Shown here piece after piece: positions 3,721-26,264 of a stretch of 60,477 nt of DNA; the stretch's first letter is position 1, and each line of letters starts with the position of its first letter. Below the pieces are notes generated by a model that saw nothing but the letters and a program-made list of their open reading frames with translations, was not told the origin of the DNA and ran no database searches. The DNA comes from Lentisphaerae bacterium RIFOXYA12_FULL_48_11 (lineage in GTDB: Bacteria > Verrucomicrobiota > Kiritimatiellia > UBA8416 > YA12-FULL-48-11), in assembly GCA_001804885.1 (NCBI GenBank), contig MHBM01000050.1, positions 1-60,477 on the forward strand. Reading direction: 5' to 3'. The translations under genes and the position numbers were made by a program.

Positions 3721-6258
3721 ATGAGAGCAAATGGAGTGATAGGAGTGGTACTGGCAGCAGTTTTGAGTCTAACAATTGGGTTATCAGCATTTGCTGATCC
3801 GGTATCTGAAGATACCGCAATGAGACTGGTTAGCAATTGGCTGGTCGCTGAGAAAATGACAGGCTACACGGCAAAAAGCGTGCAAGCCGTCACCGCGGAG
3901 GATGGAACAATTCTCCATTATATCGTGAAATGTAACCCAAAGGGGTTTGTGATTATTGCGTCGGATACCCGCATGGAGCCCATCATTGCTTTTTCAGGGG
4001 CAGATAACACAAGAACTGATAACCCGCTGTTTAGTATAGCCCGGCAGGATACTACGACACGCCGAAAACTGCTGGACACCGCCGATGCTCTTCGTGCTAC
4101 AACAGCTTCGAAGAAAATGGCGCAACAGGACGCGCCTGTCACCGCTGACACATCAGCAGAGGATAATCTGATCACTCAGTTGGATGCAGTCGAGAAGGAA
4201 TCGGCTGACAAATGGAGTTCCATTCTGACTGCCAGTTCAAGACCCCGTAAAGGAAGCGGGAGTGACGATCCTATTGCAGCTCTCCGACCAACTCGCGACA
4301 TTGTGGCATATGATGCACCACCTGCTGAAGGCACCCCTACAGAGGCTTTTGCCCCAGCCGGACTAACCGTATGGACAGCACCAATCATAGAAACCTCATG
4401 GGATCAGAACAAACAGTTTGGTAATTTTGGTTCTAATCTTTATAACCTAATGACCCCCAGTAACCGTCTTGCGGGTTGCGGTCCAGTCGCATTGGCACAG
4501 GTCATGTTCTACCACAAATGGCCAATGCAGGAATTGGGTTCAACTGCAGGAACCGCTGTAGTTCAACAAGTCAATGGCACCTACAGTACTAATGCCTATA
4601 ATTACTTTGCGACCTATACGAACGCAACAGGCGTTTTGTCCATGACTAATATGTCCCTGGAATATAAGAACGACGCTTCAGCTTCCGTAACTTGGACAAA
4701 TGTATCAAAATTGATGGCTGATATTGGTGTTGCAGCTGGTGCCACCTATTATACAAACCAGACTGGAACAACCTTGCAGAATCTCCATACTGCAATGACT
4801 GACGTTTTCCAGTATCCGAGAGCTGTCTATGGCAGTACGTCCAATAATTTCATTGAAATTTTGAATCTCAATGTTCTTGGGAAAAAACCTGTGGTGATGG
4901 CATTCGCTAATTCCGCCGCACTTGATGCAGGTCATATCGCTGTTGTAGACGGGTATGCCGTCTCTGCCCAAAACACCAAGTTTCATCACTTGAACCTTGG
5001 GTGGGGTGAGGTTGGTGAAAACACAGCATGGTATAACCTGCCGACGATTATCGCGTACAATACCATACAGGGCTTTATTTATAATATCATGACCAATGGC
5101 GAAGAGCTTGTTACCGGCCGTATTCTTGACTCAGCCTCGTCGGCCCCGGTGGAGAATGTCACCATAACCATTGGTTCAAAAACCAGCACATCGGACGAAT
5201 ATGGCGTCTATGGCATAGAGGTGGATTCTGCCAGCGTTAATGAGGTAGTACTTTCCAAGATAGGGTATGTGACACAAACTTATACGGTCACCAACGGAAC
5301 GTCTTCTGCAAATACCCCTGGTAATAAATACAATTCTATTACGCTTGTAAAAGCACCAGACATGTCTTTTACGGCAGGGACCTACGGTAGTAACATTGTG
5401 CTATCATGGTCTTGCCCGACAAACTCCTATTATCCTAAGGATATTATCATTATTGCCACAACGAATGCCGGCGGCGCGGATACAGGCTATGCCACGTATT
5501 GGACCAACGCAACAATGCCAACGGAGTGGTTTACAAACTGGAGTGAGGGTACGTGGATAGCAGGGGCTACCAACTCCGCCCCAGCAGTGCTTTTACCGTC
5601 CAATCAGGTTTTCTGGGCCGATGGAGAAGCGACCACCAATCTGCTACTTTCTGATATGCCACTGAACGTTACCTACTACTTCAAAATGTGGGCTACGAAT
5701 GCAACGACGGGGTTCATTGAAATCGAGAATGGTACGTCAATGGCATATGTCACGCCTGATTCAAATAATGAAATTCTCTATTTCCAGGAGACGAATGCAA
5801 CAGGCAAGGCCTATTTCATGATGCCCAAAGCTGGTCAGCAAACTAGTGGGACTTATCAGTGGAAATATGAAGGCTGGTGTGCAGAAAGTAATATGTCACT
5901 CTACAACCTCGCCGGCTCTGCGGATTTCAACTCTAACGGTATTCCAGATATCGTCTGGCAACGGAAAACCGATTCAGCAAACAATGATGAGAATTATATT
6001 CTCTGGGATATGAATCTGGACGGAACACTGAACGAGGCGCATAGTATGTTGGCTTCTGTTAATATTGGGGCTGCTTGGCCGATGGTTGGCATCAAAGACA
6101 TGGATACCGATTCTCATCCTGATATTGTTCTAAGCAATACGAATGACAGTCGCATGTTAATCTACTATATGACTAGCGGCATCTACAATGCCTCGAGTCC
6201 CATCATTACCAATACACAGCCTTTGAGTGTTCAGTTCAGAGTACCGGGTAATCGGTAA
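3721..6258 (+). CDS. secreted C10 (streptopain-like) cysteine peptidase with Spi-like prodomain, carboxypeptidase-regulatory-like and FG-GAP-like domains
   Basis: GGAGAG RBS, signal peptide, prodomain motif GFVIIASD, catalytic AGCGPVALAQVM, GHIAVVDGY, HLNLGWG; ADFNSNGIPDIVW near the C-terminus. Confidence 0.85.
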   Translation: MRANGVIGVVLAAVLSLTIGLSAFADPVSEDTAMRLVSNWLVAEKMTGYTAKSVQAVTAEDGTILHYIVKCNPKGFVIIASDTRMEPIIAFSGADNTRTDNPLFSIARQDTTTRRKLLDTADALRATTASKKMAQQDAPVTADTSAEDNLITQLDAVEKESADKWSSILTASSRPRKGSGSDDPIAALRPTRDIVAYDAPPAEGTPTEAFAPAGLTVWTAPIIETSWDQNKQFGNFGSNLYNLMTPSNRLAGCGPVALAQVMFYHKWPMQELGSTAGTAVVQQVNGTYSTNAYNYFATYTNATGVLSMTNMSLEYKNDASASVTWTNVSKLMADIGVAAGATYYTNQTGTTLQNLHTAMTDVFQYPRAVYGSTSNNFIEILNLNVLGKKPVVMAFANSAALDAGHIAVVDGYAVSAQNTKFHHLNLGWGEVGENTAWYNLPTIIAYNTIQGFIYNIMTNGEELVTGRILDSASSAPVENVTITIGSKTSTSDEYGVYGIEVDSASVNEVVLSKIGYVTQTYTVTNGTSSANTPGNKYNSITLVKAPDMSFTAGTYGSNIVLSWSCPTNSYYPKDIIIIATTNAGGADTGYATYWTNATMPTEWFTNWSEGTWIAGATNSAPAVLLPSNQVFWADGEATTNLLLSDMPLNVTYYFKMWATNATTGFIEIENGTSMAYVTPDSNNEILYFQETNATGKAYFMMPKAGQQTSGTYQWKYEGWCAESNMSLYNLAGSADFNSNGIPDIVWQRKTDSANNDENYILWDMNLDGTLNEAHSMLASVNIGAAWPMVGIKDMDTDSHPDIVLSNTNDSRMLIYYMTSGIYNASSPIITNTQPLSVQFRVPGNR

Positions 6259-6271
6259 GAGTTAAGCGACC

Positions 6272-6305
6272 AAAAAGCTCCACCGGAATTCCGGTGGAGC
6301 TTTTT
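6272..6305. terminator. bidirectional intrinsic terminator (perfect 34-bp palindrome)
   Basis: AAAAAGCTCCACCGG-AATT-CCGGTGGAGCTTTTT between convergent genes. Confidence 0.85.
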
Positions 6306-6561
6306 GCGTTTATATACCCTATCCTTCCCGAGCCCTCTTCGTTCCCTTCGCGTCCTTCTATTTTGATCCCGCTCGATTCTCCAGTTCGTGAACTTTTGTA
6401 AAACACTCCGACAATCTGCGGTTACATCTTCCGACTCGAAGCCTACGGCTCCGCAAACGAAACACGGGCCTGCCCTGCGTAGTCAGTTCAAGACGAAGCA
6501 CGGGTGGTGAAAACTCTTCCTCTTCTTCGTAAGCGTTACCCGGGGCTCAGCCGCCGTATCT

Positions 6562-7704
6562 TCAAGGCACGAGATTTTCCAGGAACCAGGGAAGAGAACA
6601 GGAAACAAGTCCCCCTGATTCAAAACTGTCATTAGTTCGTGAAACAAGAATACATTTATCAGCAGAAATCATCGTGGCTGTCCTGGCAAGATTCTTCATG
6701 TCATCTTCAGAAGGCGAAGAAGAAAGCTTGACCTCTATAGCCCAGATTTGTTTCCTGACCTTTACCACCAGATCCAGTTCATACCCGTCAGAAGTTCGGA
6801 AGAAACTCGCGTCAGGATTCAATCCTGACAAGCACAGGCCAGTTATCAACTGTTCAATAACATATCCTTCCCAGCTGTGGCCTACCCACGGCTGGGAAAG
6901 AAGATCATCTTCGGATGTGATACCGGCTAAGGCATGAAGCAGGCCGGAATCCCGCCAGTAAAGCTTCGGACTTTTTGTTAGCCGTTTCCGCATGTTTACA
7001 TGATATGATTGAAGCCTTCTGACAATATAGGCTCCCTCCAGAAAGTCAACGTACGTGTTGACGGTATTGTGAGACAAGCCTAGACTTTTCCCGATTTGCG
7101 AGGCATTCCATAATTGGCCATTACATATAGTAAGCATTTTCAGCAGTCTTGATGTCAACTGAGGCCTTGCATGCATACCCCAATTCGGAAGATCACGTTG
7201 CGCCAGGAGGTTAAGATAATCAATTTGCCATTGCGGAAATTTGGAACCTCCAAGTATACCTCCATCGGGATAGCCACCATAAAACCAATGGTGGCGACTG
7301 TGTGCTTTGTGCAATTCCTGCAGCATGAGCGGGGTCAGCTCGACAAGGGATAGTCTGCCTGTCAGCGCCTCCGACACATGGGTCATCAGAAATGGAGAAA
7401 CCGATCCCAGGATAAGGAACCGCGCATTCCTTTTCCGGTCTAAGTCAATGGCTGATCGGATTCTCGGAAAGATTTCCGGCCATGCCTGAGCCTCATCGAG
7501 GATGATTAATTCGTTGGCTGAAATTAGATCGTTCCATTGTGTATCAAGTTTCAGGCGGCTTGATTCTGTTTCAAGGTCAAAATAGATACCTGCAAACGAC
7601 TTCGCCAACGTTGTTTTGCCGGCCTGGCGGGGCCCCAGCAGACCGACAGCCGGGAAGAGGGAAAGCCTTTTCTTAACTGTATCTTTTAACAAACGTTTAA
7701 TCAT
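6562..7704 (-). CDS. AAA_14 + DUF4143 ATPase (copy 1)
   Basis: Walker A GPRQAGKT, Walker B IILDEAQ, LGS motif, central HTH-like NASQIGKSLGLSHNTVNTY, KLYWRDSGL, C-terminal ELDLV...IEVK. Start reset to ATG 7704. Confidence 0.85.
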   Translation of the reverse strand: MIKRLLKDTVKKRLSLFPAVGLLGPRQAGKTTLAKSFAGIYFDLETESSRLKLDTQWNDLISANELIILDEAQAWPEIFPRIRSAIDLDRKRNARFLILGSVSPFLMTHVSEALTGRLSLVELTPLMLQELHKAHSRHHWFYGGYPDGGILGGSKFPQWQIDYLNLLAQRDLPNWGMHARPQLTSRLLKMLTICNGQLWNASQIGKSLGLSHNTVNTYVDFLEGAYIVRRLQSYHVNMRKRLTKSPKLYWRDSGLLHALAGITSEDDLLSQPWVGHSWEGYVIEQLITGLCLSGLNPDASFFRTSDGYELDLVVKVRKQIWAIEVKLSSSPSEDDMKNLARTATMISADKCILVSRTNDSFESGGLVSCSLPWFLENLVP

Positions 7705-8231
7705 CTTCTTGATGATTGTAAATGGATTTACAAATTGCAAGAACAATCATTCTGTTATTTCTCTCAAAATCCTTCGCTGCCTTCCATGGCACGCCATAGT
7801 TCCGAAGGAACGACGGCGGCTGTTAACAACGCCCCAGCCTCTTCACTTGGTGAACTTGGCGATCTTTGTGGTAAAGAATCTTCTCCTCTCGGATTTTTAA
7901 CACCCGCGCTTCCCAGCGCTCCCATCTTCGCCAAAGCGCTACGACGTGGCAAGCAAGTTGCCCAAGTACACGAAGGAAAGATTAAGCACCATCTTCGTAC
8001 TACTATCTGTCAGAATCGTGTTTTTTTATGCAGAAGCTAAGAATAGTTCACCACGAAGAAAGAACAAGGGTGCACGAAGTGAAGCAAAAAGTATTTCTTT
8101 GTGTCCTTCGGGCACTTGCCTGTCCGCCGCAGCTATGGATTACAGGGGCGAAGGCTGGAAGGCCGGGAGGCCGGGTGGTTAAAATATTCTTTGGTTGCGG
8201 CTTCCCGCGCTGTGAACTTTGCCGTAAGATC

Positions 8232-8645
8232 TCACCTTTGGAAACCGGCCAGCAATTCGTCAGGAGCAAAAACCTTCAGCGCGGCATGACGAAAATCCTT
8301 TTGATTTCGTGTAACAACAACCTCGGCTCCTGCCAGTCTGCCGGCTTGATCAAGAACTGCATCCTCAAAATCCGTGAGTTTACTTTTAAGAGCTTCTTCC
8401 AAAACGACACGATTAACCGACGCAATTTCAAACAGTTCCAATAACTTCCTCAGCGCTTGAGTGGCAGAGGAACGAGACATGGATTGCATAAGAAGATAGT
8501 CAATCGTTGTAATAGTTGTCGCGCACAAAAGTCCTTCGATTTTTGAGTGTTCAACCAGAGAGAATACTTCTGCAGAAGCGCCGACAAATGGCTGCCGTGC
8601 AAGAAGCACATCCAGTACAACGTTGGTATCGACCAGTATCCTCAC
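8232..8645 (-). CDS. PIN-domain (VapC-like) toxin
   Basis: N-terminal ILVDTNVVLD, DFEDA and VTRNQKDF acidic PIN motifs; 4-nt overlap with the upstream antitoxin. Confidence 0.85.
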   Translation of the reverse strand: MRILVDTNVVLDVLLARQPFVGASAEVFSLVEHSKIEGLLCATTITTIDYLLMQSMSRSSATQALRKLLELFEIASVNRVVLEEALKSKLTDFEDAVLDQAGRLAGAEVVVTRNQKDFRHAALKVFAPDELLAGFQR

Positions 8646-8881
8646 GAATACTTCTCCCTCAGGTGCTTCCGATATTCGGATTCAGTAATATCACGATCTT
8701 TCAAGATACCAATCAACGACTTCGTAACAGGGGGGAGTTCCTGTTCCGTACGACGCCCCGATGCCAGGGAATCAAAGAACTCCCCGACTATTTTTGAAAC
8801 CGACTTGCCTCGACGACCCGCCTCTTCTTTGGCTGTCCGAATCAGTTCAGTATCCATACGTAATGTGAGCTTTGTATTCAT
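8642..8881 (-). CDS. DUF6364-like ribbon-helix-helix antitoxin
   Basis: MNTKLTLRMDTELIRTAKEEAGRRGKSVSKIV, an RHH-type pattern, directly upstream of the PIN gene. Confidence 0.75.
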   Translation of the reverse strand: MNTKLTLRMDTELIRTAKEEAGRRGKSVSKIVGEFFDSLASGRRTEQELPPVTKSLIGILKDRDITESEYRKHLREKYS

Positions 8882-8917
8882 GACGTACAAGCTACTATAA
8901 TGTGTACGTCAAGTCAA
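8881..8917 (-). promoter_or_regulatory. TA promoter with palindromic operator
   Basis: Minus strand TTGACT-17-TAGCTT-7-ATG; 9-bp inverted repeat TGACGTACA (8881-8889) / TGTACGTCA (8903-8911). Confidence 0.6.
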
Positions 8918-9276
8918 TCCATTTTTTTTCGTTTCAGTCTCCCCATCGGCGTCATCCAGCCTTCGCTCGGAAGCTACGGCGGACAAGTCTGCGAAATCGG
9001 CGGTTACCTCATCTTCTTACACATCAGTGCTATCCTTCTAATCCGTGGTCAATAATCTTCTGCCCCCTTCGTGAACTCGGTGGTAAAAGAGCCTTTTCTG
9101 ATCCATCCCAAACACCCCAATCGGCAAAAATTTCCGCTTGTGGCATCCCCCCTGCTATTTAACCTCCTACAGTCAAAGATACCTGCATAATTGACGGGCA
9201 CGGAGTGTATCAATCACCAGCAAGTTACAATCTTCAATATGTTGCAAATGAATAACTTACACAAGGAGAATATCCG

Positions 9277-9483
9277 ATGAAGACCATATTCATGACTGCT
9301 GGAAAAGCCAGAGGAACCCCCCAGGCTAAGGCGCAAACGACAGCACCCGGAGTAATCAACTACACCCCGCCCCAATCATCTTTCTTAGCCCCAACCCAGA
9401 AAAAGCTGCAACTTATCCTCAAAACAGCCTTTTCAGAACATTCCTACGAATTTGCCATCGATTCCGACGGCCTGACAGCATGA
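9277..9483 (+). CDS. small hypothetical protein (68 aa)
   Basis: AAGGAG RBS 8 nt upstream of the ATG; no recognisable motif. Confidence 0.4.
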   Translation: MKTIFMTAGKARGTPQAKAQTTAPGVINYTPPQSSFLAPTQKKLQLILKTAFSEHSYEFAIDSDGLTA

Positions 9484-9642
9484 AAAACATGATCACCACA
9501 AAGTTCACCAAGAACACCAAGTTAAAATCCCTCTCTTGCCGAAATCATCCCGACCTCTTGGAGCGTCGGGATGTGGAGACCGTATGACGCATTTTGTTTC
9601 TTCGGGAAAAGATTTTATGTCAGATAGCCCAAAGCGCAAGGC

Positions 9643-9684
9643 GTCGCAGGTGGCGTCTGTATACGTATACGCGCCATCTGCGAC
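9643..9684. repeat. REP-like palindrome upstream of the glycan locus
   Basis: GTCGCAGGTGGCG...CGCCATCTGCGAC imperfect inverted repeat; a second hairpin ATCCCGAC...GTCGGGAT lies at 9547-9572. Confidence 0.6.
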
Positions 9685-9761
9685 AACACAGCGAATGAGG
9701 TAATATCACGTAAAAGAGTTTCTCGCGAAAGGCGTCATGCATTCTTGATTTCTCTCAACAC

Positions 9762-12700
9762 ATGAATATCTTTGATCAAAATCTGGAAACACTAAGCAAA
9801 CACTACCCGTCACTTGCCGAACGCGTCCTGTCCTACCCCGACAAAGACAACCTCGTCGCCTTCGAGACCAAAGATGGCGGCCTCGCCTACGCTCTAAAGA
9901 AAGATACCGGCATCGAATACCTCACCGACCCCGTAACCCCTGTGACTCGCATCGGCAACCAACTCCAGGCCAACTCCTCCAAGCTCAGCGACTTCACCCT
10001 CCCCGTCATGGTCATCGGCACCTACCCCGGCGATGAAATCCTTTACCTATTCGATCTCTGCGAAAAGGCACCGATACCACATGCCGGACAGAAGCTTTAT
10101 GTCTGCATCGACTCCATTGCCTGTTTCTGTGCTTTCCTCCAGACAATGGATGCCCAGCGGGTAATCCAGTCAGACCGGGTAAAATTCTTCTGGCATGAAG
10201 AAGCCGAAGCGCTTGCAAACGAGTTTCGCCAGAAACCTGATCTTTCTTATCTTTTTACACTCGTGAGCGGCGCCCTGAACGGATCTGTCAACAAGGTAAT
10301 GAAGCCTTTCATCAGCCTTGTACAGGAACGTTCTGCAGAAACCCAGCGCCTCATGAGCGAAAACGAAGCCTATTACGACGCGATAAGTGATGAAGAGTTA
10401 GCAGAAGTTATTAGCAATCAGTTCTCAGTTAACAGTCAAGTATCAGGAAATGGATGCCTGAAGTCAGAGGGATGGCAAGACGCTGGCGAGCCGTTTTCAT
10501 CCCACAACACAGAACTCGAAACCCGAAACTCGAAACTTCTTAACGCCCCTACTGATAACCGATCACTGCTAACTGATAACTCCTCCACTCGTGCTCCACG
10601 TTTAATGACCTTGACCTCCTCATGGTCCACCGTTACCCAATATGGCGCACGTGATCTTTGCGAAGCCATGGAATCAGCCGGCTGGCAGACAAGGAAACTC
10701 AATGTTGACGGCACCCCGACGGCACACTATATCGCCAAGCAGATCAACGAATTTAAGCCGGATATATTTGTTTTTATCAATCATCTTCGTACCGAGTGCT
10801 CCACCCTTTTCCCTAAGAACATGATGTTTATCACGTGGGTCCAGGACACCGTCCCGCAGATAAACAATCACGAAGCCGCCGCAAAGTGGAATTCTATGGC
10901 GACAGCAAAGTTAACCACGGAGTTCACAGAGACACAGAGTAATCAGGAAAACTCTTCTTCCTCTTCCCTTTGTGACCTTAGTGGTGAAAAATCTTCTTCC
11001 CCGTCGCGGAAACGCGATCTCATCATCGGTTACGTCGGCCAACTGAAGAAATATGGCTATCTCGAAGATCGCCTTGTTGAAATGCCCATGATTGTCAACC
11101 CCAACATCTTCAAGCCCAGGGTATTGACAGAAGAGCAAAAGGCAAAATATGGTTGTGATGTAATGTTTGCATCCCGTGCAGGACAGCCATCCTATGAACG
11201 TATAGAAGAAATGCTCACCGAATGGAATGAGGGTAAAAACCTGAATTGCCCGCGTAATGCGCTGACCGATCTTCATAACCGCTTATGGGACGCGTACCGG
11301 GACGGAGAAACTTTCTGTAGCTATACAGCGGTAGAAACCTTCGCTTTAACTGTCCCTTCCTTTGCGAAATGGTATTCTGCCCGGACAGAAGAAGAACGAG
11401 ATTACCTGCAACAACAAATATTCTGGTCACTAAACGATCTGATTTACCGTCAAGCCGTAATTGAATGGCTGGACGAACTGGCCTCCGGCCAAGAAACTAA
11501 AGACGACAAACAACAGACTCCTTTTAGACAGGATGAACATGATATACACAATACCGAGTCGCCATCCGGCGACATTAACCGAAATCTTTCTGATCCTGTA
11601 AATCCCGTCAAAATATCTTCCTCCGATAACTCGAAACTCGAAACCCAGAACTCAGAACCACGTAAACGCTTACGTTTGCATTTGTACGGCGATGGCTGGA
11701 ATCGTCATCCACGTTTTGCCAGATACTGGAAAGGTGTGCTGGGACATGGCGAGGAATTGTCTATTGCCTTTCAGTGCGCCCAGCGGTGCCTGCACTTGAA
11801 CTCAATGGAAAGCGGTCATCAGCGCCTGCTTGAAATCATCGCATCAGGTGGCCACCCCCTCACCCGTACCAGCTTGCCAGCCGATTCGGACAGCTCGTTA
11901 CTCCATTCTGCTTTGCGTGTCTATGCCCAAGATTCCTCGCGTTGGCTGGAAAAGTTGCCGGAAGAAGAATGCCTCTTCATCAACGCATGGCTTTACCCAG
12001 TTATTATCCGTATGCTGAAAAATGATCCGACACAAACCAACGCACAAATTGCACAAACCCTGCATGACGACATGATCCGGAAGCTGTGGAAACATCCCGA
12101 CTGGACAGTTTCCGGTTGGAATTCACTGGTGTTTCACTCCCGAGTTGACTTGGAACAGATGTTATCGGGTCCTGTCGCCGATTGTGATATGAATACCGCC
12201 GCACAACGCCTGGGGTCCATCAACGGTCGTTACTTGGCGCATGCCATCGTCAACATCTTGGCACGGTACCTCTTGAAAAAAGAAACGGCGAATATAACAT
12301 CGGAAAATCCATGGCAAGCTTTAATTCAATACGCAAGACTGCTGTCACAACCCGACATATCAATAGATGAACTTTTGAGCGCATTCCATGCAATCAGGCA
12401 TCCACACCAGCAAATTATCTTAGATACGGTTAAACGCCTGGAAGAAAAAGGCGCAAACGAGCAGATAGTTTTACTTCTGGATAAAGTAAGTCCCGAGAAC
12501 ATGCCCAGCCGTCAACTGACTACTTACGCTAACGGTCTTGCGAATAGTGGACGGTTTGATGATACGCTTGAGATAATTGACCTTGCCTACACCAAAAACC
12601 CCAACCTCAAAGACGTACACGCCCGCATCGCTTGGAAACACTTCTGGACACAAAAAGACCATGCCAAAGTCATAGAATGGATGCTTCTTGACGACACCGC

Positions 12701-13976
12701 TAACCGGTTGTCGCCCGGTCAGCGTTTGAATTTCGCCCAGGCACTGTCTGCTCAAGGCGACATAGCCACCGCCGAAAAACATGTCGAAACCGCCTATACC
12801 GCCGACCCCAATCTCAAAGATGGTTATGCACGAATAGGCTGGCAGGCTTATTGGGATACCAAGCAATATGCAAAAGTATTCAATCTTTGCAAACGTGACA
12901 TTCAGTCCCGCCAAATTTCTCCCGGCTGGCTCATCAATGCCGCCAAAGCCGCCGCCGGGATGGGCAAGATGAATCAAGCCGACGAACTCATCGAACAGGC
13001 CTACGCTGACTCTAGTGATATCAAAAACGGTTATGCCCAGATTGGATGGCAGGCTTTCGCACCTCTCAGCGCATTTGATCGAACCCTTCCATGGTTCGAA
13101 CGTGATTTTGCGCAGAACCGACTCAATCCCACATGGCTTCTCAACTATGCGCAAGCCCTCTCAGCTTGTGGCGATTACGACAAAGCTAACGAGCTAGTCG
13201 ATCAAGCCTATGAGTCTGATCCGACTCTGAATAATGGTTATGCCCGCTGCTCTTGGATGCGGTATGTTATGGTGTCATTCGAACCAGAAAAAGCACTTGC
13301 GAGTTTCGAAAAAGACAAAACACTGGGAAAGCTGGTTGGTCAGCACAAAATCCTGCATGCCATCGTCATGGCCGCTGCAGGTGATTTCGCTACAGCCTTA
13401 TCAATGGTCAAACAAACATACGACGAACATCCGGAATGCACGGATGGTTTTTCACTCATTGGTTGGTATCACTTTGTCGTTAATCACAATGGCGCTGAAA
13501 AAGCCCTCGAGTTATTCAAGCGGGATCGGGAGGTAGGGCGACTATCTCACCAGACGCAACTTCTTGAGGCCGCCGTCCATGCCAATATTGGCAATATTTC
13601 AGAAGCAACCGATATTGTTACAAACAGTTACACCACGTCTCGGACCGTAGTTGGCGGTTATACACTTGTTGGATGTCTCAACTACTTGAGCAACCATAAC
13701 ATTTCTTTCACTCTGGAAATGCTTCAGAAGGATCGCATTTCTGGGCGAATCCAAAATGGTTTCCTGAAATATATCCATGCCTCTTTCCTGATGAAAGACG
13801 GAAACATTGCTAAAGCAGATGAGCTTCTTAAGCAAACCGCCTGTTCCGCGATCAGTGAACAGTATGCCGTGTGCTGGCTACAACGTCTAGGTTTCCAGGC
13901 ACCCGACATTGTCGATTTAATAACACCTGAACTTCACCAACAATTCCAGAAGGTATTACATTTTTCGCGTACTTAG
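9762..13976 (+). CDS. large glycosyltransferase: Maf-like N-terminus + CgeB/YkvP-like (GT-B) core + C-terminal TPR-like repeats
   Basis: MNIFDQNLETL Maf-like start; FITWVQD, CDVMFAS, LYGDGW, HQRLLEIIASGG (CgeB-like); repeated AY..DP.LKDGYARIGW units; three low-complexity in-frame insertions. Confidence 0.7.
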   Translation: MNIFDQNLETLSKHYPSLAERVLSYPDKDNLVAFETKDGGLAYALKKDTGIEYLTDPVTPVTRIGNQLQANSSKLSDFTLPVMVIGTYPGDEILYLFDLCEKAPIPHAGQKLYVCIDSIACFCAFLQTMDAQRVIQSDRVKFFWHEEAEALANEFRQKPDLSYLFTLVSGALNGSVNKVMKPFISLVQERSAETQRLMSENEAYYDAISDEELAEVISNQFSVNSQVSGNGCLKSEGWQDAGEPFSSHNTELETRNSKLLNAPTDNRSLLTDNSSTRAPRLMTLTSSWSTVTQYGARDLCEAMESAGWQTRKLNVDGTPTAHYIAKQINEFKPDIFVFINHLRTECSTLFPKNMMFITWVQDTVPQINNHEAAAKWNSMATAKLTTEFTETQSNQENSSSSSLCDLSGEKSSSPSRKRDLIIGYVGQLKKYGYLEDRLVEMPMIVNPNIFKPRVLTEEQKAKYGCDVMFASRAGQPSYERIEEMLTEWNEGKNLNCPRNALTDLHNRLWDAYRDGETFCSYTAVETFALTVPSFAKWYSARTEEERDYLQQQIFWSLNDLIYRQAVIEWLDELASGQETKDDKQQTPFRQDEHDIHNTESPSGDINRNLSDPVNPVKISSSDNSKLETQNSEPRKRLRLHLYGDGWNRHPRFARYWKGVLGHGEELSIAFQCAQRCLHLNSMESGHQRLLEIIASGGHPLTRTSLPADSDSSLLHSALRVYAQDSSRWLEKLPEEECLFINAWLYPVIIRMLKNDPTQTNAQIAQTLHDDMIRKLWKHPDWTVSGWNSLVFHSRVDLEQMLSGPVADCDMNTAAQRLGSINGRYLAHAIVNILARYLLKKETANITSENPWQALIQYARLLSQPDISIDELLSAFHAIRHPHQQIILDTVKRLEEKGANEQIVLLLDKVSPENMPSRQLTTYANGLANSGRFDDTLEIIDLAYTKNPNLKDVHARIAWKHFWTQKDHAKVIEWMLLDDTANRLSPGQRLNFAQALSAQGDIATAEKHVETAYTADPNLKDGYARIGWQAYWDTKQYAKVFNLCKRDIQSRQISPGWLINAAKAAAGMGKMNQADELIEQAYADSSDIKNGYAQIGWQAFAPLSAFDRTLPWFERDFAQNRLNPTWLLNYAQALSACGDYDKANELVDQAYESDPTLNNGYARCSWMRYVMVSFEPEKALASFEKDKTLGKLVGQHKILHAIVMAAAGDFATALSMVKQTYDEHPECTDGFSLIGWYHFVVNHNGAEKALELFKRDREVGRLSHQTQLLEAAVHANIGNISEATDIVTNSYTTSRTVVGGYTLVGCLNYLSNHNISFTLEMLQKDRISGRIQNGFLKYIHASFLMKDGNIAKADELLKQTACSAISEQYAVCWLQRLGFQAPDIVDLITPELHQQFQKVLHFSRT
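10406..10581. repeat. nested ~7-bp-period palindromic repeat element inside CDS
   Basis: AGTTATTAGCAATCAGTTCTCAGTT ... AACTCGAAACCCGAAACTCGAAACT ... ACTGATAACCGATCACTGCTAACTGATAACT. Confidence 0.65.
10913..11000. repeat. ACCACRGAG / CTYYGTG-type palindromic repeat inside CDS
   Basis: AACCACGGAGTTCACAGAGACACAGAG ... CTTTGTGACCTTAGTGGTGAAAA; same family as intergenic copies at 7840-7885, 9066-9088 and 9493-9523. Confidence 0.75.
11522..11658. repeat. GACAGGAT / ATCCTGT-type palindromic repeat plus AACTCGA-type repeats inside CDS
   Basis: TTTTAGACAGGATGAACATGAT ... ATCCTGTAAATCCCGTCAAAA ... AACTCGAAACTCGAAACCCAGAACTCAGAAC; internal hairpin GTCGCC-ATCC-GGCGAC. Confidence 0.65.
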
Positions 13977-14009: not shown

Positions 14010-16844
14010 ATGAATCCTGGAAACGATATAGTAACTGAACTCAAAACAGCCCTATTCAAAAACGTCTTGAATCGACACGAATTTGAAACACGATACAAGG
14101 CCGACGTCACCAACCCAGCCACTCTTGATGAACTCTGCCGTTTTGTCAAAACCCAGTATGTAACCGATATGTCTCTTAAAGACGGTTATTCACGGATTGC
14201 CATGTTACTCCTCGCCAACAATAATGCAGCGGATGCCATCAATCTCTGGGAAGATGATCGCAAACAAAACCGTATCTCCTGGTGGCAGGAATTCCGATGT
14301 GCAGAGGCAATAATGGAGCTCAAAGGTATTGAAGAATCCAGAATTCATATCGAAAGCATTTATAAACAATATCCGACCGCGACCAATGGCTTTGCATCCC
14401 TTGGCTGGCGGCTGATGGACAAGGATGCCGCTTCCGCACTCGACCTCTTCCGTGCAGATGACCAACTTGGCCATCTCACCCCGGGTTTCCGCCTCAACTA
14501 TGCCGTTGCCCTATCTCGGCAGGGTCAAACTAAAGAATCAGAAATCCAGATTGATAAGGCATATAATCTCGATGCCAACCTCAAAGATGGATTTGTGCGC
14601 GCTGCATGGGCTGCCTTCGGCTCCAGACCAAATGAACGAATCAAGGCCCTGCCTTTCTTCGAAAGAGACTTCTCAGAAATCAGGATGACTCCCGCCCACA
14701 TGCTCACTCTCGCTCAACTACGCGCTGAAAACGGCACCTTCGATTCCACTCTCCCCATCATCGAACAAGCATATAAACTCGACAGCTCTCTCAGGGACGG
14801 CTATGCGCGCGCTGCATGGGCCGCCTTCGGTTCCAAGCCAAATGAACGAATCAAGGCCCTTCCTTCCTTCGAAAAAGACTTCGCTGCACAGCGCCTTTCT
14901 CCTGCACAGATGCTCACTCTCGCTCAACTACGCGCTGAAAACGGTAACCTCGATGCGGCTCTCCCTATCATCGAACAGGCATACAATCTCGATGCCAACC
15001 TCAAGGACGGCTATGCGCGCGCTGCTTGGGCCGCATTCGGTTCCAAACCAAACGAACGTCTCAAGGCTCTTACTTTCTTCGAAAAAGATTACGCCGCAGA
15101 TCGCCTCTCACCCGCTCATATGCTTGCCCTCGTCCAATTACGGGCTCAAAACGGTAACCTCGATTCCGCTCTCCCTATCATCGAACAAGCATACAATCTC
15201 GACAGCTCTCTCAGGGACGGCTATGCGCGGGCTGCTTGGGCCGCATTCGGTTCCAACCCAAATGAACGAATCAAGGCCCTTCCTTCCTTCGAAAAAGACT
15301 TCGCTGCACAGCGCCTTTCTCCTGCACAGATGCTCACACTCGCTCAATTACTAGCTCTAAACGGTAAACTCGACTCAGCGCTCCCTATCATCGAACAAGC
15401 ATATAATCTCGACAGCTCTCTCAGGGACGGCTATGCGCGGGCTGCTTGGGCCGCATTCGCCTCAAAACCTGAACAACATTTACAGGCTCTGCCTTACTTC
15501 GAAAAAGACTACGCCGCAGAAAAACTTTCTCCAGCCCACATGCTCACCCTCGCTCAACTACGCGCTGAAAACGGCAACTTCGATTCCACTCTCCCTATCA
15601 TCGATAAGGCATACAATCTCGATGCCAACCTCAAGGATGGCCTCAGTCGTATCGCTGGTGAGTTGATCAAGACTGGCGACCGGGAAAAGGCTTTAGTTTT
15701 ACTTCTGGATGACTTCCATACTGCCCACCAATCACCTGGATGGATGATACGCACGGCAACGATCTTGAGTGAAACAGGAGACATACAGAAAGCTCAAGCA
15801 ATAGTAGCAAAAGCTTATCAGATAGACCCCACGTTAAAGGACGGCTATACAGGTCTTATAGCGGCATCCCGAACAGGGTGCCCGATAGACACAGCAAATC
15901 AATTTTTACCAAAACACATTCTGCAACTGGTTGACATGGATCTCCGCCAAAAGCGACTCTCTCCAAAAGGCCGCCAGACGGCCCTCCATGTCCTGCGCCA
16001 GAATACTATGGTCGCTGCTGAAATTGCTCTGGCAGAAGAGCGATATAGCATGGATCTAGCCTCTCAATGGAACCACCTAGAGTCACTAACAAGAAGCGGA
16101 CAGAAAGTTGAAGAAAGAATCCCCATCCTAAACGCCAAATTGAAAATCGTTCAGGCAAGCGACATTCTTGTGCAATTTCGTGAAATTATCCTTCATGAGC
16201 AGTATCGCTTTGAAACGACGACCGCCGAACCAGTAATCATTGATGGGGGTGCTGATGCTGGCGTATCTATCGCTTATTTTAAGTGGCGTTACCCAACCAG
16301 TCACATTATTGCTTTTGAACCTAATCCCGCGATGTTTAAAATCTGCCAATCCAACATCCAGTACAACGGTTGGACCAATGTTACTCTTCTACCCTATGCC
16401 CTTTCGGATACTGACGGAGATGCTCAATTTAATGTCGTTGAGTCCATGCCCATGGCGTCCACACTCACCGATCGGCTTCCCAACTCAGTCGCCGTTGAAG
16501 ACATTCAGTCCATGGTGGTTCAAACAAGACGACTAAGTTCTTTCTTAAACGCCGAAGTGGATTTTATGAAGCTTGATATCGAAGGAATGGAAAGAAAGGT
16601 AATAGATGAACTGGGAATCCGTATTCGCCTGGTAAGATCCGGGTTCATCGAATACCATTATGATCCGCATAGCAGAGAAAATTCCCTGGTCAATCTTCTG
16701 CACTGTTTGGACCAAAACGACTATTTTTATGCGATGACCGATCAGCCAGGACGAGCTTTGAATGCAGTAAAGTACGCTGGAGATGTAAATGCATGTCAAA
16801 ACTGGTCGTGCGGAATATTTATTACAAGGAGATGTCTACTGTGA
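14010..16844 (+). CDS. TPR-like repeat protein fused to an FkbM-family methyltransferase
   Basis: 70-aa tandem repeats followed by IIDGGADAG, IAFEPNP and DFMKLDIEG motifs. Confidence 0.85.
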   Translation: MNPGNDIVTELKTALFKNVLNRHEFETRYKADVTNPATLDELCRFVKTQYVTDMSLKDGYSRIAMLLLANNNAADAINLWEDDRKQNRISWWQEFRCAEAIMELKGIEESRIHIESIYKQYPTATNGFASLGWRLMDKDAASALDLFRADDQLGHLTPGFRLNYAVALSRQGQTKESEIQIDKAYNLDANLKDGFVRAAWAAFGSRPNERIKALPFFERDFSEIRMTPAHMLTLAQLRAENGTFDSTLPIIEQAYKLDSSLRDGYARAAWAAFGSKPNERIKALPSFEKDFAAQRLSPAQMLTLAQLRAENGNLDAALPIIEQAYNLDANLKDGYARAAWAAFGSKPNERLKALTFFEKDYAADRLSPAHMLALVQLRAQNGNLDSALPIIEQAYNLDSSLRDGYARAAWAAFGSNPNERIKALPSFEKDFAAQRLSPAQMLTLAQLLALNGKLDSALPIIEQAYNLDSSLRDGYARAAWAAFASKPEQHLQALPYFEKDYAAEKLSPAHMLTLAQLRAENGNFDSTLPIIDKAYNLDANLKDGLSRIAGELIKTGDREKALVLLLDDFHTAHQSPGWMIRTATILSETGDIQKAQAIVAKAYQIDPTLKDGYTGLIAASRTGCPIDTANQFLPKHILQLVDMDLRQKRLSPKGRQTALHVLRQNTMVAAEIALAEERYSMDLASQWNHLESLTRSGQKVEERIPILNAKLKIVQASDILVQFREIILHEQYRFETTTAEPVIIDGGADAGVSIAYFKWRYPTSHIIAFEPNPAMFKICQSNIQYNGWTNVTLLPYALSDTDGDAQFNVVESMPMASTLTDRLPNSVAVEDIQSMVVQTRRLSSFLNAEVDFMKLDIEGMERKVIDELGIRIRLVRSGFIEYHYDPHSRENSLVNLLHCLDQNDYFYAMTDQPGRALNAVKYAGDVNACQNWSCGIFITRRCLL
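14553..15642 (+). repeat. 210-bp intragenic tandem repeat (five full units plus a partial sixth)
   Basis: Unit starts at 14553, 14763, 14973, 15183, 15393 and 15603; units 2 and 4 share long identical stretches. Confidence 0.95.
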
Positions 16845-25356: not shown

Positions 25357-25385
25357 CGTTGCGCTGCAGAGCCGGGTATTTAACA

Positions 25386-26264
25386 ATGAATAGACATTCT
25401 ACAGTACCAAGTGACTTTGCCTTGGCGCAGCAGGCGGCAATGGAAGCTGGACGTTTGCTGCGGAAACAGCGGGCAGCCTGGAACCAGGTGACAAGTGTCA
25501 CTCAACACGATATCAAGCTGCAGGCGGACCGCGCCGCTGAAACGGTAATCCTGAAAATACTCAAAGAAGGATCACCTTACCCGATCCTGTCTGAAGAGGC
25601 TGGCGAACTGAAAGCTACCAACCCCAACTCTTCTCCACGGCTCAGTGGTGAGTCTTCCTCTTCCCTTCGTGGTCTTGGTGAACTTTGTGGTAAATCTTCC
25701 ATCTCTTCTGTCCCTCCAGACAAAGAATATCTCTGGATTGTAGATCCGCTGGACGGAACAGTAAATTATTCGCGTGGAACCCCTTTGTCAGCCGTATCAA
25801 TCGGACTATGGCAAAACAACAAACCGGTCTACGGTGTAATTTACGATTTCTGGCGTGATGAACTTTTCCACGGCGGATCTGGTTTTGGCGCATTTATGGG
25901 ATATCAGTCGATAAAAGTCAGCGGGACAACTGATCCACAACTTGCAATCCTTGCCACAGGGTTTCCCGCCAACAGCGACCACAATACTGCCCCGTTGCAG
26001 CAATTCCTGGAATCAGTACAGCGTTTCAAGAAAATTCGTTTACTCGGGACAGCAGCCCTTTCCATGGCCTACGTGGCCTGCGGTCGTACCGATGCATATA
26101 TGGAACGGGATATTATGCTTTGGGACATCGCCGCCGGCGCGGCAATAGTCCAGGGCGCTGGAGGAGTGATCTCTATCGAACCATCCAGTAGAGTACCTAA
26201 CGCCTGCTTGACGAAAGCCGCCGCATCCATCGATTTACTCAACGCCCTAGAAAGCAAAAAATGA
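25386..26264 (+). CDS. inositol monophosphatase family phosphatase with an in-frame repeat insertion
   Basis: ILSEE, WIVDPLDGTVNY, WDIAAG; a Ser-rich insert of about 30 aa lies between SEE and WIVDP. Confidence 0.9.
   Translation: MNRHSTVPSDFALAQQAAMEAGRLLRKQRAAWNQVTSVTQHDIKLQADRAAETVILKILKEGSPYPILSEEAGELKATNPNSSPRLSGESSSSLRGLGELCGKSSISSVPPDKEYLWIVDPLDGTVNYSRGTPLSAVSIGLWQNNKPVYGVIYDFWRDELFHGGSGFGAFMGYQSIKVSGTTDPQLAILATGFPANSDHNTAPLQQFLESVQRFKKIRLLGTAALSMAYVACGRTDAYMERDIMLWDIAAGAAIVQGAGGVISIEPSSRVPNACLTKAAASIDLLNALESKK
25628..25712. repeat. CTTGGTGAACTTTGTGGT-type repeat inside the IMPase CDS
   Basis: 25673-25691 is the exact reverse complement of intergenic 9495-9513 (19 nt). Confidence 0.8.

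What the first reader, a model, noticed from the sequence alone, without database searches (positions are those of the whole stretch)
10406..11658. Three intergenic-type palindromic repeat elements inserted in frame inside one glycosyltransferase
Seen: three low-complexity peptide stretches (VISNQFSVNSQ...TDNRSLLTDNS, TTEFTETQSNQENSSSSSLCDLSGEKSS, FRQDEHD...DPVNPVKISSSDNSKLETQNSE) are encoded by DNA with inverted arms and short-period repeats, from three different repeat families. The second is the same family as intergenic copies 1-3 kb upstream. The frame stays open for 1404 codons and conserved CgeB-like motifs resume after each insert. Established: Rickettsia palindromic elements insert in frame into proteins. 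Inference: an analogous, multi-family mechanism of loop creation in this lineage.
Basis: partly seen in the sequence, partly recalled or inferred. Interest (0 to 1): 0.75.

Follow-up and report, generated by a model that had tools for sequence, protein, structure and literature searches.

The report
Repeat DNA translated inside a glycosyltransferase
Three pieces of repeat DNA of kinds that normally lie between genes sit in frame in three floppy loops of a sugar-transferring enzyme of an uncultured Lentisphaerae-type bacterium; this is real and recurs in related genes, but it is a further example of a phenomenon already described in Rickettsia and other bacteria.

Summary
ORF 9762-13976 (1404 aa) encodes a Maf-like domain, a GT-B/CgeB-like glycosyltransferase and TPR repeats. 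It carries three lineage-specific in-frame insertions, about +54, +32 and +58 aa. They are absent from roughly 36 of about 38 homologues at each site, including the closest ones.

An AlphaFold model puts its only three long low-confidence segments exactly on the inserts.

All three are built from repeat classes that are mostly intergenic:
- Insert 1 is an inverted pair of TAACTGA-type heptamer arrays around a small hairpin plus an (AACTCGA)n array.
- Insert 2 is a (CTTnGTG)n…GTGGTGAA hairpin with an A-run/TCTTCC tail. It has about 30 mostly intergenic relatives in this genome, and relatives in 38 of 61 genomes of the order.
- Insert 3 is an ACAGGAT/ATCCTGT hairpin plus a second (AACTCGA)n array.

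Inserts 1 and 3 therefore share a module; the families are not fully distinct.

Other homologues carry their own repeat inserts in the same loops, and each has insert-free sister sequences. A second in-frame copy lies in an inositol monophosphatase in the same window. Sixteen of 26 heptamer-periodic segments genome-wide lie inside long ORFs.

How the DNA arrives is unknown, and I found no link to the genome's RAYT-type transposases. This is a new member of a known kind (RPE, intragenic REP and heptamer-array insertions).

The parts
9762..13976 (+). Host gene (1404 aa). Maf-like N-terminal domain (about 1-215), GT-B / Glyco_trans_1_2 (CgeB-like) glycosyltransferase (about 277-800), C-terminal TPR repeats.
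   Evidence: ORF. TPR Pfam hits. Foldseek best match is the Maf glycosyltransferase 5mu5, E 1e-5, followed by weaker matches (E 0.003-0.1) to GT-B/GT4 glycosyltransferase structures. Homologues P0006 and P0010 hit PF13524 above cut-off just after site 3; this protein hits it only below cut-off, E 0.02.
10413..10589 (+). Insert 1: 59 aa where homologues have 5 (net about +54 aa). Lies between helix 210-227 and strand 280-286.
   Evidence: Alignment lengths. pLDDT<50 for residues 223-274. In relatives, matches break at residues 219/275 while subject coordinates stay contiguous.
10403..10436 (+). Left arm of insert 1: degenerate reverse TAACTGA-type heptamer array (AGTTATT AGCAATC AGTTCTC AGTTAAC AGT). 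It encodes EVISNQFSVNSQ. Its first unit overlaps the ancestral E-V-I codons.
   Evidence: Inverted repeat I1. Pattern hits. The reverse TAACTGA repeat is reported to encode LSVISYQ (PMC4679880). The empty site in P0002 reads GAA GTA ATT.
10469..10503 (+). Small inner hairpin of insert 1 (GGGATGG...CCGTTTTCATCCC).
   Evidence: Minimum-energy fold of 10400-10590.
10513..10537 (+). (AACTCGA)3.6 heptamer array inside insert 1.
   Evidence: Tandem Repeats Finder score 43. Period-7 track. Related to 11618-11665 (D2).
10551..10584 (+). Right arm of insert 1: forward TAACTGA-type array (ACTGATA ACCGATC ACTGCTA ACTGATA ACT). It is stop-free in the frame used because of the TAACCGA and TCACTGC unit variants.
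   Evidence: A perfect forward array has stops in all frames (PMC4679880). The same unit variants are common in relatives.
10896..11006 (+). Insert 2: 37 aa where homologues have 4-6 (net about +32 aa). Lies between helix 370-381 and strand 419-423.
   Evidence: pLDDT<50 for residues 384-414.
10911..10939 (+). Left arm of the insert 2 hairpin (TTAACCAC GGAG TTCACAGAG ACACAGAG).
   Evidence: Read from the sequence. Pairs with the right arm in the minimum-energy fold.
10968..11001 (+). Right arm of insert 2 (CTTTGTGAC CTTAGTGGTGAAAAA) plus pyrimidine tail TCTTCTTCC.
   Evidence: Pattern family of 41 arms against 7 in the shuffled genome. Alignment A3 with intergenic copies. A pyrimidine-rich tail follows 44% of arms against 9% of control positions.
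11478..11675 (+). Insert 3: 66 aa where homologues have 4-9 (net about +58 aa). Lies between helix 543-575 and strand 639-642.
   Evidence: pLDDT<50 for residues 578-633.
11522..11613 (+). Hairpin of insert 3: TTTTAGACAGGATGAACATGAT ... (inner GTCGCC/GGCGAC stem 11558-11573) ... ATCTTTCTGATCCTGTAAATCCCGTCAAAA.
   Evidence: Inverted repeat I7. Minimum-energy fold, z = -2.1. Relatives of the ATCCTGT..ATCCTGTCAAAA end at C90:6204, C101:13354 and C218:25796.
11614..11664 (+). Tail of insert 3: TATCTTCCTCC followed by the heptamer array AACTCGA AACTCGA AACCCAG AACTCAG AAC.
   Evidence: Shares the module with insert 1 (D2).
25628..25712 (+). Second in-frame copy of the insert 2 family, inside the inositol monophosphatase gene 25359-26264. 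Same orientation; encodes GESSSSLRGLGELCGKSS.
   Evidence: ORF. Pfam Inositol_P. Clean 30-32 aa indel against homologues. 15-nt exact match to insert 2, and 19 nt identical to the intergenic copy at 9494-9512.
7842..7885 (+). Intergenic copy of the (CTTnGTG)n GTGGTAA + TCTTC family.
9486..9525 (-). Intergenic copy of the same family, inverted relative to 7842-7872 (31 nt, 84% complementary). The pair brackets a PIN_3/DUF6364 module.
   Evidence: (I1).
9060..9095 (+). Intergenic copy of the same family.
6504..6529 (+). Intergenic partial copy (GTGGTGAAAACTCTTCCTCTTCTTCG).
   Evidence: (D1).

Best explanation
The three stretches are pieces of dispersed, mostly intergenic repeat DNA that entered the coding sequence of a Maf/GT-B glycosyltransferase. 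They survive because each lies in a surface loop between secondary-structure elements, has a length divisible by three, and is stop-free in the frame used. They are translated as Ser/Asn/Thr-rich disordered loops.

The repeats are modular. Their arms are tandem 7-9-nt units: TAACTGA-type, AACTCGA-type, CTTnGTG-type and ACAGGAT-type. The arms are often paired in inverted orientation around a short core and followed by an A-run and a TCTTCC-like pyrimidine tail.

Shown:
- the inserts are insertions relative to homologues;
- they are of repeat origin;
- they fall in predicted loops;
- homologues have acquired inserts at the same loops independently.

Inferred:
- the inserts are translated and functionally neutral;
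- the sites recur because few loops tolerate inserts.

Not known: how the DNA arrives. It could be transposition by an unidentified enzyme, or microhomology- or recombination-mediated copying from another locus, followed by slippage and decay.
For: - Clean indels. The three sites measure 59, 37 and 66 aa here against 5, 4-6 and 4-9 aa in about 36 of roughly 38 homologues at each site. Invariant motifs resume straight after each insert: R280; D419/G423/Y424; L641/Y642/G643/W646. Relatives align as blocks 1-219 / 275-381 / 415-575 / 610-799 with contiguous DNA.
- Structure. The only long pLDDT<50 segments of the AlphaFold model are 223-274, 384-414 and 578-633.
- Reading frame. Only the frame used is stop-free on the coding strand in each insert. 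Ser+Asn+Thr make up 38% of insert residues against 17% of the core.
- Repeat origin. The CTTnGTG arm family has 41 arms against 7 in the shuffled genome, and 32 of the 41 are intergenic. It occurs in 38 of 61 genomes of the order, with near-zero control counts. An intergenic twin of insert 1's architecture lies at C71:66578-66675, and similar elements occur in a relative's genome (L027, L028, L033). TAACTGA arrays are abundant in relatives, e.g. 329 hits against 0 control hits in G030.
- Independent recurrence. P0005 (site 2), P0016 (site 3), L042 (site 1, inverted GAAGTCA arrays) and L035 (sites 2 and 3) carry their own repeat-built inserts. Each has insert-free sister sequences in the tree, and the protein studied here groups with the insert-free P0002 and P0003.
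- Generality. The IMPase insert in the same window. Sixteen of 26 period-7 segments lie inside long ORFs, including a kinase activation loop, a histidine-kinase ATPase domain and glycosyltransferases.
- Not an assembly artefact. The gene and 1.5 kb upstream are 100% identical in separate ENA and JGI metagenome assemblies.
Against: - No close relative (>60% identity) with empty sites was available, so no target-site duplication or exact insertion boundary could be defined. The same-genus genome lacks the gene.
- Sequence similarity between copies is short, 13-19 nt exact. Family membership therefore rests on architecture and short motifs.
- Copy numbers of the heptamer and ACAGGAT families in this genome are low.
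- The palindromes fold only modestly better than shuffles.
- No mobilising enzyme was found. The genome's Y1/RAYT-type genes are flanked by other repeats.
- Translation and retention in the mature protein were not tested.
Confidence: 0.75

Rival explanations
1. In-situ growth: the loops expanded locally by replication slippage or duplication of short seeds already in the gene (long simple-sequence repeats), with no DNA imported from elsewhere.
For: - The first unit of insert 1's left array (AGTTATT) overlaps the ancestral E-V-I codons. The empty site in P0002 reads GAA GTA ATT.
- Heptamers are the unit size most prone to slippage-type expansion in bacteria (Mrazek 2007, as summarised in PMC4679880).
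- Copies of these unit types are few in this genome.
Against: - Slippage does not produce inverted arrays, inner hairpins or the A-run/TCTTCC tails.
- The same unit types and the same composite architecture occur at unlinked loci and in other genomes.
- Insert 2 and the IMPase insert share about 40 nt, including the loop motif TCTTCCTCTTCC.
Confidence: 0.1
2. The tracts are kept for a function. Heptamer arrays in glycan-synthesis genes could act as contingency (phase-variation) switches, because gain or loss of one 7-nt unit shifts the frame. Alternatively the loops could serve as selected flexible linkers or docking segments.
For: - Many in-frame heptamer tracts lie in glycosyltransferase or glycan genes. 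One is a perfect (CAGAATC)3.9 tract near the 5' end of a GT4 gene on contig C46.
- Simple-repeat-driven phase variation of surface-glycan genes is well established in other bacteria (background in PMC4679880).
Against: - The arrays in this gene are short and imperfect, with at most 2 perfect units.
- Three independent assemblies are identical.
- The inserts differ in sequence between lineages at the same loop.
- The inserts are predicted to be disordered.
Confidence: 0.1
3. Artefact or dead gene: a mis-assembly, or a decaying pseudogene whose frame is open by chance.
For: The genome is a draft metagenome-assembled genome (314 contigs, 84% complete). The protein itself reaches Pfam Glyco_trans_1_2 only below threshold.
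Against: - The DNA is identical in separate ENA and JGI assemblies.
- The frame is open for 1404 codons, and all 31 family-invariant residues are present.
- Only the frame used is open across each insert.
- The AlphaFold model is confident outside the inserts.
Confidence: 0.03

Closest known systems
Rickettsia palindromic elements (RPE; Ogata et al. 2000, as summarised in PMC10969869 and PMC3733652)
   Same: Several families of palindromic repeat DNA, also found between genes, inserted in frame in unrelated enzymes. They are compatible with the protein fold because they lie in surface loops.
   Different: - RPEs are sequence-conserved units of about 100-150 bp, each with a conserved peptide, present at high copy in Rickettsia.
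- Here the arms are tandem 7-9-nt units with little sequence conservation, copy numbers are low, and the phylum is different (PVC group).
- No sequence relation to RPEs was tested.
GTAG- and CGTC-tagged REPs inside genes, e.g. in the verrucomicrobium Opitutus terrae (Di Nocera et al. 2013, PMC3733652)
   Same: Small hairpin repeats, mostly intergenic, found in frame inside known genes of a PVC bacterium. Dimers or clusters encode 20-80 aa, and some genes are hit twice.
   Different: - The three inserts carry no GTAG or CGTC tag.
- This genome does hold GTAG REPs and 10 Y1-transposase genes, but those genes are flanked by GTAG REPs or long terminal inverted repeats, not by the families studied here.
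TAACTGA heptamer direct repeats of Beggiatoaceae, Cyanobacteria and Bacteroidetes (MacGregor 2015, PMC4679880)
   Same: Same heptamer unit as the arms of insert 1. They are mostly intergenic and mixed with other heptamers. Reverse-oriented copies inside ORFs encode LSVISYQ (here EVISNQFSVNSQ).
   Different: - That paper reports intragenic copies mainly at protein termini, forward copies only at ORF ends (stops in all frames), and a single inverted set.
- Here an inverted pair, including a stop-free forward array, sits in an internal loop.
- The host clade (Lentisphaerae-type, PVC) is not among the taxa that paper lists.
GGGAATC heptamer arrays of Xanthomonas, many in convergent inverted pairs, and GGGGA(C/T)T arrays of Nostoc (PMC4692102)
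   Same: Dispersed heptamer arrays of a few units. About 70 convergent inverted pairs per Xanthomonas genome. 7-11% are intragenic in Xanthomonas and about a third in Nostoc.
   Different: Those units are G-rich and form quadruplexes; the units here are not G-rich. Loop insertions mapped against homologues were not described there.

Membership tests
RPE-like in-frame palindromic insertions (the phenomenon) | The segment is an insertion relative to homologues and keeps the reading frame | tested here: met
   Net +54, about +32 and about +58 aa, with conserved motifs resuming after each.
RPE-like in-frame palindromic insertions (the phenomenon) | The inserted DNA is palindromic and belongs to families that also have intergenic copies | tested here: met
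   Arms. Intergenic copies. The palindromes are decayed (z-scores -0.7 to -2.1).
RPE-like in-frame palindromic insertions (the phenomenon) | The insert lies in a surface loop compatible with the fold | tested here: met
   AlphaFold model: pLDDT<50 only at 223-274, 384-414 and 578-633, each between a helix and a strand. This is a prediction, not an experiment.
Rickettsia RPE families proper | Sequence similarity to the RPE-1 to RPE-10 consensus, or the CGTC tag | tested here: not met
   No CGTC-tagged stem is visible at the ends of any arm when the sequence is read. No comparison with RPE consensus sequences was run.
GTAG REP / REPIN with RAYT | GTAG tetranucleotide at one end of the stem | tested here: not met
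   None of the three hairpins carries it. GTAG REPs of this genome are a separate family, GTAGGGCGGGGCC....
GTAG REP / REPIN with RAYT | The same repeat flanks a Y1 (RAYT) transposase gene | tested here: not met
   Ten Y1_Tnp genes were found. Their flanks hold GTAG REPs or GGGTCACG... terminal inverted repeats, not CTTnGTG, ACAGGAT or heptamer arrays.
TAACTGA heptamer repeats | Two or more tandem copies of TAACTGA or close variants | tested here: met
   10551-10581: 4.4 copies, 75% matches. The reverse array lies at 10403-10436. The unit variants TAACCGA and TCACTGA also occur in arrays of relatives.
Simple-sequence contingency locus (phase variation) | A perfect repeat tract whose unit number varies between cells or strains and switches the frame | tested here: inconclusive
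   The tracts are imperfect. Three assemblies are identical, but they may be one strain. Read-level data were unavailable.
Known RNA families (Rfam 15) | A match to a curated covariance model | tested here: not met
   No match in the window except a tRNA at gathering threshold. Nothing relevant at E<=5 in 6200-11800.

The most novel reading that the evidence does not exclude
The inserts may belong to an undescribed, order-wide class of modular repeats in PVC bacteria. In this class the architecture is fixed, while the unit sequence is free. The fixed parts are arms made of tandem 7-9-nt units, often inverted around a small core, followed by an A-run and a TCTTCC-type tail.

This class would be made or moved by a mechanism that does not involve RAYT transposases and that has site preference. 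That would explain why the same three loops of this glycosyltransferase family were hit independently in at least five lineages. In two of them the same ATCCTGTAAATCC + heptamer-array composite lies at the same loop.

Heptamer tracts in glycan genes could additionally serve as frameshift switches.
Probability: 0.2. Interest if true: 0.75.

Novelty: new member of a known kind. Interest (0 to 1): 0.45.

Why it matters
- **Scope of the phenomenon.** Non-coding repeat DNA being translated inside proteins is not confined to Rickettsia, Wolbachia or REP-rich proteobacteria. It also operates in free-living Lentisphaerae/Kiritimatiellae-type bacteria, with repeat classes (inverted heptamer arrays, CTTnGTG hairpins) that, as far as my searches went, have not been described in this role.
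- **Practical consequences.** Such inserts weaken domain detection. This protein misses the Pfam glycosyltransferase threshold that its insert-free relatives pass. They also lengthen proteins and can mislead annotation and structure prediction.
- **A natural experiment.** The recurrent use of the same three loops in independent lineages shows which positions of a GT-B enzyme tolerate 30-100 extra residues.
- **Distribution of a known repeat.** The abundance of TAACTGA-type arrays in relatives extends the puzzling, patchy distribution of that repeat.

Tried and rejected
- **Exact-word counts and short-query BLAST of the inserts against the own genome** found no long copies. The families are too degenerate, so I moved to pattern and architecture searches.
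- **12-mer census** showed CRISPR repeats and GTAG REPs, not the families of interest.
- **Low-score tandem arrays** (Tandem Repeats Finder score 30) are near chance level: 1391 real against 766 shuffled. Only arrays scoring >=38, or the period-7 track, are informative.
- **Pattern hits inside long ORFs on C143, C265 and C49** look like chance matches or are unproven. I did not count them.
- **RAYT/Y1 transposase link.** Rejected for these families.
- **XisH link suggested for TAACTGA repeats in PMC4679880.** No XisH in any of 61 genomes, but no positive control rang, so this is weak.
- **Rfam.** Nothing.
- **My first idea about the forward TAACTGA arm** was that it had been purged of stops by point mutations after insertion. 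I softened this, because the stop-free unit variants TAACCGA and TCACTGA are common in arrays of relatives. Selection among pre-existing variants is equally possible.
- **Orientation of intergenic copies relative to neighbouring genes.** No clear bias with a crude gene map.
- **The same-genus genome lacks the gene**, so no close empty-site comparison was possible.
Full report
**What is there.** The window (contig C50 of a 5.68-Mb, 314-contig draft genome, 48% G+C) carries one ORF at 9762-13976 on the + strand, 1404 codons long.

The DNA under them has the properties described:
- Insert 1 has inverted arms at 10403-10436 and 10551-10584 (34 nt, 74% complementary), and both arms have 7-nt periodicity.
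- A separate (AACTCGA)3.6 array lies between those arms at 10513-10537.
- Insert 2 folds as CCACGGAGUUCACAGAG...CUUUGUGACCUUAGUGG.
- Insert 3 has arms at 11528-11543 and 11584-11599 around a small GUCGCC/GGCGAC stem, and is followed by a second (AACTCGA)n array at 11628-11651.

This exceeds chance:
- The two heptamer patterns give 5 and 6 matches in the window against 0.24 and 0.12 expected, all in this gene.
- The only strongly period-7 stretches in 60 kb are 10494-10544 and 11623-11664.
- Genome-wide there are 26 such stretches against 1 in a shuffled genome. Periods 8 and 10 show no such excess.

The palindromes are decayed, with fold z-scores of -1.9, -0.7 and -2.1.

**The host protein.**
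- Pfam sees only TPR repeats in the C-terminal half.
- The N-terminal 800 residues were modelled with 15 homologues (mean pLDDT 75). The best structural match is the Maf glycosyltransferase 5mu5 (E 1e-5), followed by weaker matches (E 0.003-0.1) to GT-B/GT4 glycosyltransferases.
- Homologues P0006 and P0010 reach Pfam Glyco_trans_1_2 (the CgeB-like family) above threshold in the block just after site 3. This protein scores only E 0.02 there.

'Glycosyltransferase' is therefore supported, through relatives and fold.

**They are insertions.** In an alignment with 15 database homologues and 23 further homologues from species-representative genomes, the three places compare as follows:

| Site | This protein | About 36 of 38 homologues |
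|---|---|---|
| 1 | 59 aa | 5 aa |
| 2 | 37 aa | 4-6 aa |
| 3 | 66 aa | 4-9 aa |

- Family-invariant residues resume immediately after each insert: R280; D419, G423, Y424; L641, Y642, G643, W646.
- In whole-genome searches, relatives align as blocks 1-219 / 275-381 / 415-575 / 610-799 on contiguous DNA.
- The closest relatives, P0002 and P0003 (58-60% identity over the N-terminal part), lack all three inserts. Their DNA shows the empty sites.
- The AlphaFold model has exactly three long low-confidence segments, 223-274, 384-414 and 578-633. Each joins a helix to the next strand.
- Only the frame in use is stop-free on the coding strand across each insert. The inserts are rich in Ser, Asn and Thr.
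- The gene, with its inserts and 1.5 kb upstream, is identical base for base in separate ENA and JGI metagenome assemblies. It is not an assembly artefact.

**What the inserted DNA is.**

*Insert 2* is a full hairpin of a family whose arm reads (CTTnGTGn1-3)2-3 GTGGT(G/A/T)AA, usually followed by an A-run and a pyrimidine tail such as TCTTCC.
- This genome has 41 such arms against 7 in a shuffled control. Thirty-two are intergenic by a crude gene map, and several form complete hairpins.
- The pyrimidine tail follows 44% of arms against 9% of random positions.
- The motif occurs in 38 of 61 genomes of the same order, with near-zero counts for the reversed control pattern. It is typically seen as inverted pairs 35-130 nt apart.

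*Insert 1* has arms that are degenerate arrays of the heptamer TAACTGA.
- This repeat is described in Beggiatoaceae, Cyanobacteria and Bacteroidetes. There the reverse orientation encodes LSVISYQ (here EVISNQFSVNSQ), and the forward orientation has stops in all frames (PMC4679880).
- Here the forward arm is open because its units are TAACCGA and TCACTGC.
- Those variants are common in arrays of related genomes. The stop-free state may therefore reflect selection among existing variants rather than later mutation.
- An intergenic element with the same plan (reverse array, core, forward array) lies at C71:66578-66675 of this genome.
- Several more lie between genes in a relative whose genome holds 329 TAACTGA-type hits against 0 in the control.

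*Insert 3* combines a TTTTAGACAGGAT...ATCCTGTAAATCCCGTCAAAA hairpin with a TCTTCC tail and the AACTCGA array.
- The hairpin end has three other copies in the genome, one of them abutting a CTTnGTG element.
- The AACTCGA module is shared with insert 1: 48 nt at 73% identity, in the same frame. The 'three different families' are thus three different hairpin or arm types with one shared module.

No Rfam family matches any of this.

**It is a general habit of the lineage.** Other members of this protein family carry their own inserts at the same loops, built from the same classes of DNA:
- P0005 at site 2: about 100 aa of TAGTGAA and GAAnCCG heptamers plus a CCCAGGGCGACGCCCTGGG palindrome.
- P0016 at site 3: an (ACACGGAA)n arm. 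It also has an insert at an extra site.
- L042 at site 1: inverted GAAGTCA/GACCTCT arrays around TTCTTCTCTGCCTTCTTCTCC.
- L035 at sites 2 and 3. Site 3 reads ATCCTGTAAATCCTG followed by (GACCAAG)5, the same composite as insert 3.

In a tree built without the insert columns, every insert-bearing protein has insert-free sister sequences. The protein studied here groups with P0002 and P0003. At least five independent acquisitions are the economical reading.

Within this genome:
- A second in-frame copy of the insert 2 family sits in an inositol monophosphatase at 25628-25712. It has the same orientation and a similar peptide, and is a clean 30-32 aa indel against homologues.
- Sixteen of the 26 period-7 segments lie inside long ORFs that Pfam confirms as real genes. 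These include a protein-kinase activation loop, a histidine-kinase ATPase domain, three adjacent glycosyltransferases and an epimerase.

**How it most likely works.**
- Shown: repeat-type DNA has entered coding DNA repeatedly.
- Inferred: what survives is filtered by three conditions, namely a tolerant loop, a length divisible by three, and no stop in frame. The DNA is then translated as a disordered loop and decays.
- Not shown: how it arrives. The genome has ten Y1 (IS200/RAYT-type) transposase genes, but they are flanked by GTAG REPs or by GGGTCACG... terminal inverted repeats, not by these families. XisH, whose distribution was noted to parallel TAACTGA repeats, was found in none of 61 genomes, though without a positive control.
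- One hint: the first unit of insert 1's left array (AGTTATT) coincides with the ancestral Glu-Val-Ile codons, which read GAA GTA ATT in the empty site of P0002. This would fit microhomology-guided integration or local seeding. It is a single case.

**Rivals.**
- Pure in-situ slippage does not explain the inverted arrays, inner hairpins, shared tails and shared modules at unlinked loci.
- A selected role cannot be excluded. Options are phase variation through 7-nt steps in glycan genes, or functional linkers. However, the tracts here are short and imperfect, the three assemblies are identical, and the loops differ between lineages.
- An artefact or pseudogene reading is contradicted by the independent assemblies and the intact invariant residues.

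**Comparison with what is known.** In-frame palindromic repeats are classic in Rickettsia (RPE). They have also been reported for GTAG/CGTC REPs in several bacteria, including the verrucomicrobium Opitutus terrae (PMC10969869, PMC3733652). Heptamer arrays are known in Xanthomonas, Nostoc and Beggiatoaceae, including convergent inverted pairs and a minority of intragenic copies (PMC4692102, PMC4679880).

What this case adds:
- a new host clade;
- hairpin families with no GTAG or CGTC tag;
- an internal, stop-free forward TAACTGA array;
- three modules stacked in one enzyme;
- documented recurrence at the same loops.

I therefore file it as a new member of a known kind, of moderate interest.

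**Limits.** No relative close enough to define exact boundaries or target duplications was found. Family assignments rest on short motifs and architecture. The literature search covered open-access papers only.

Noticed in passing
window 25628-25712 (in ORF 25359-26264): An inositol monophosphatase carries a 30-32 aa in-frame insert of the same CTTnGTG/TCTTCC family as insert 2. It has the same orientation and a similar peptide (GESSSSLRGLGELCGKSS), and lies between the SEE and WIVDPLDGT motifs.
   Followed up: yes
window 7842-7872 and 9495-9525, around 8232-8890: Two inverted copies of the CTTnGTG family (31 nt, 84% complementary) bracket a PIN_3 / DUF6364 toxin-antitoxin-like pair. This could be a composite unit or a repeat-rich insertion hot spot.
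   Followed up: partly
genome contig C291:27062-27094: One CRISPR spacer (TTTGTTACCTTCGTGTCCTTTGTGGTGAACTCT) is itself an arm of the CTTnGTG family. The best self-match is 18 nt, so there is no full protospacer in the genome. Some foreign DNA carrying this repeat class was sampled.
   Followed up: partly
genome contigs C2:16701-16755, C260:3660-3717, C46 (five segments), C147:7824-7885, C234:43314-43372, C157:121148-121173: Heptamer arrays lie in frame inside real genes: a Ser/Thr kinase activation loop, a histidine-kinase HATPase_c domain, three adjacent glycosyltransferases, a CheA-like protein, a large hydrolase-like protein and an epimerase. One is a perfect (CAGAATC)3.9 tract near the 5' end of a GT4 gene, a possible frameshift switch.
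   Followed up: partly
related genomes G030, G044, G025, G020, G033, G042, G054, G017 (loci L027-L034): TAACTGA-type heptamer arrays are abundant in several genomes of the same order (329 hits against 0 control hits in G030). They often form inverted pairs around a core hairpin between genes. This extends the published distribution of this repeat to PVC bacteria.
   Followed up: partly
genome contigs C16, C234, C3, C199, C255 and C218, C33, C6: There are ten Y1 (IS200/RAYT-type) transposase genes. The roughly 350-aa ones have 25-30-nt terminal inverted repeats (GGGTCACGTCTCGACAATCGACAATT...). The short ones are flanked by GTAG REPs.
   Followed up: partly
window 14557-15622: About 4.9 tandem copies of a 210-bp unit (82% matches) lie inside the neighbouring TPR/FkbM-methyltransferase gene 14010-16844. 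This is a recently amplified 70-aa helical repeat related to the TPR region of the glycosyltransferase.
   Followed up: no
window 10403-10415 against locus L121 (P0002 empty site): The first heptamer unit of insert 1 (AGTTATT) overlaps ancestral codons that read GAA GTA ATT in the insert-free relative. This is a possible microhomology at the insertion point.
   Followed up: partly
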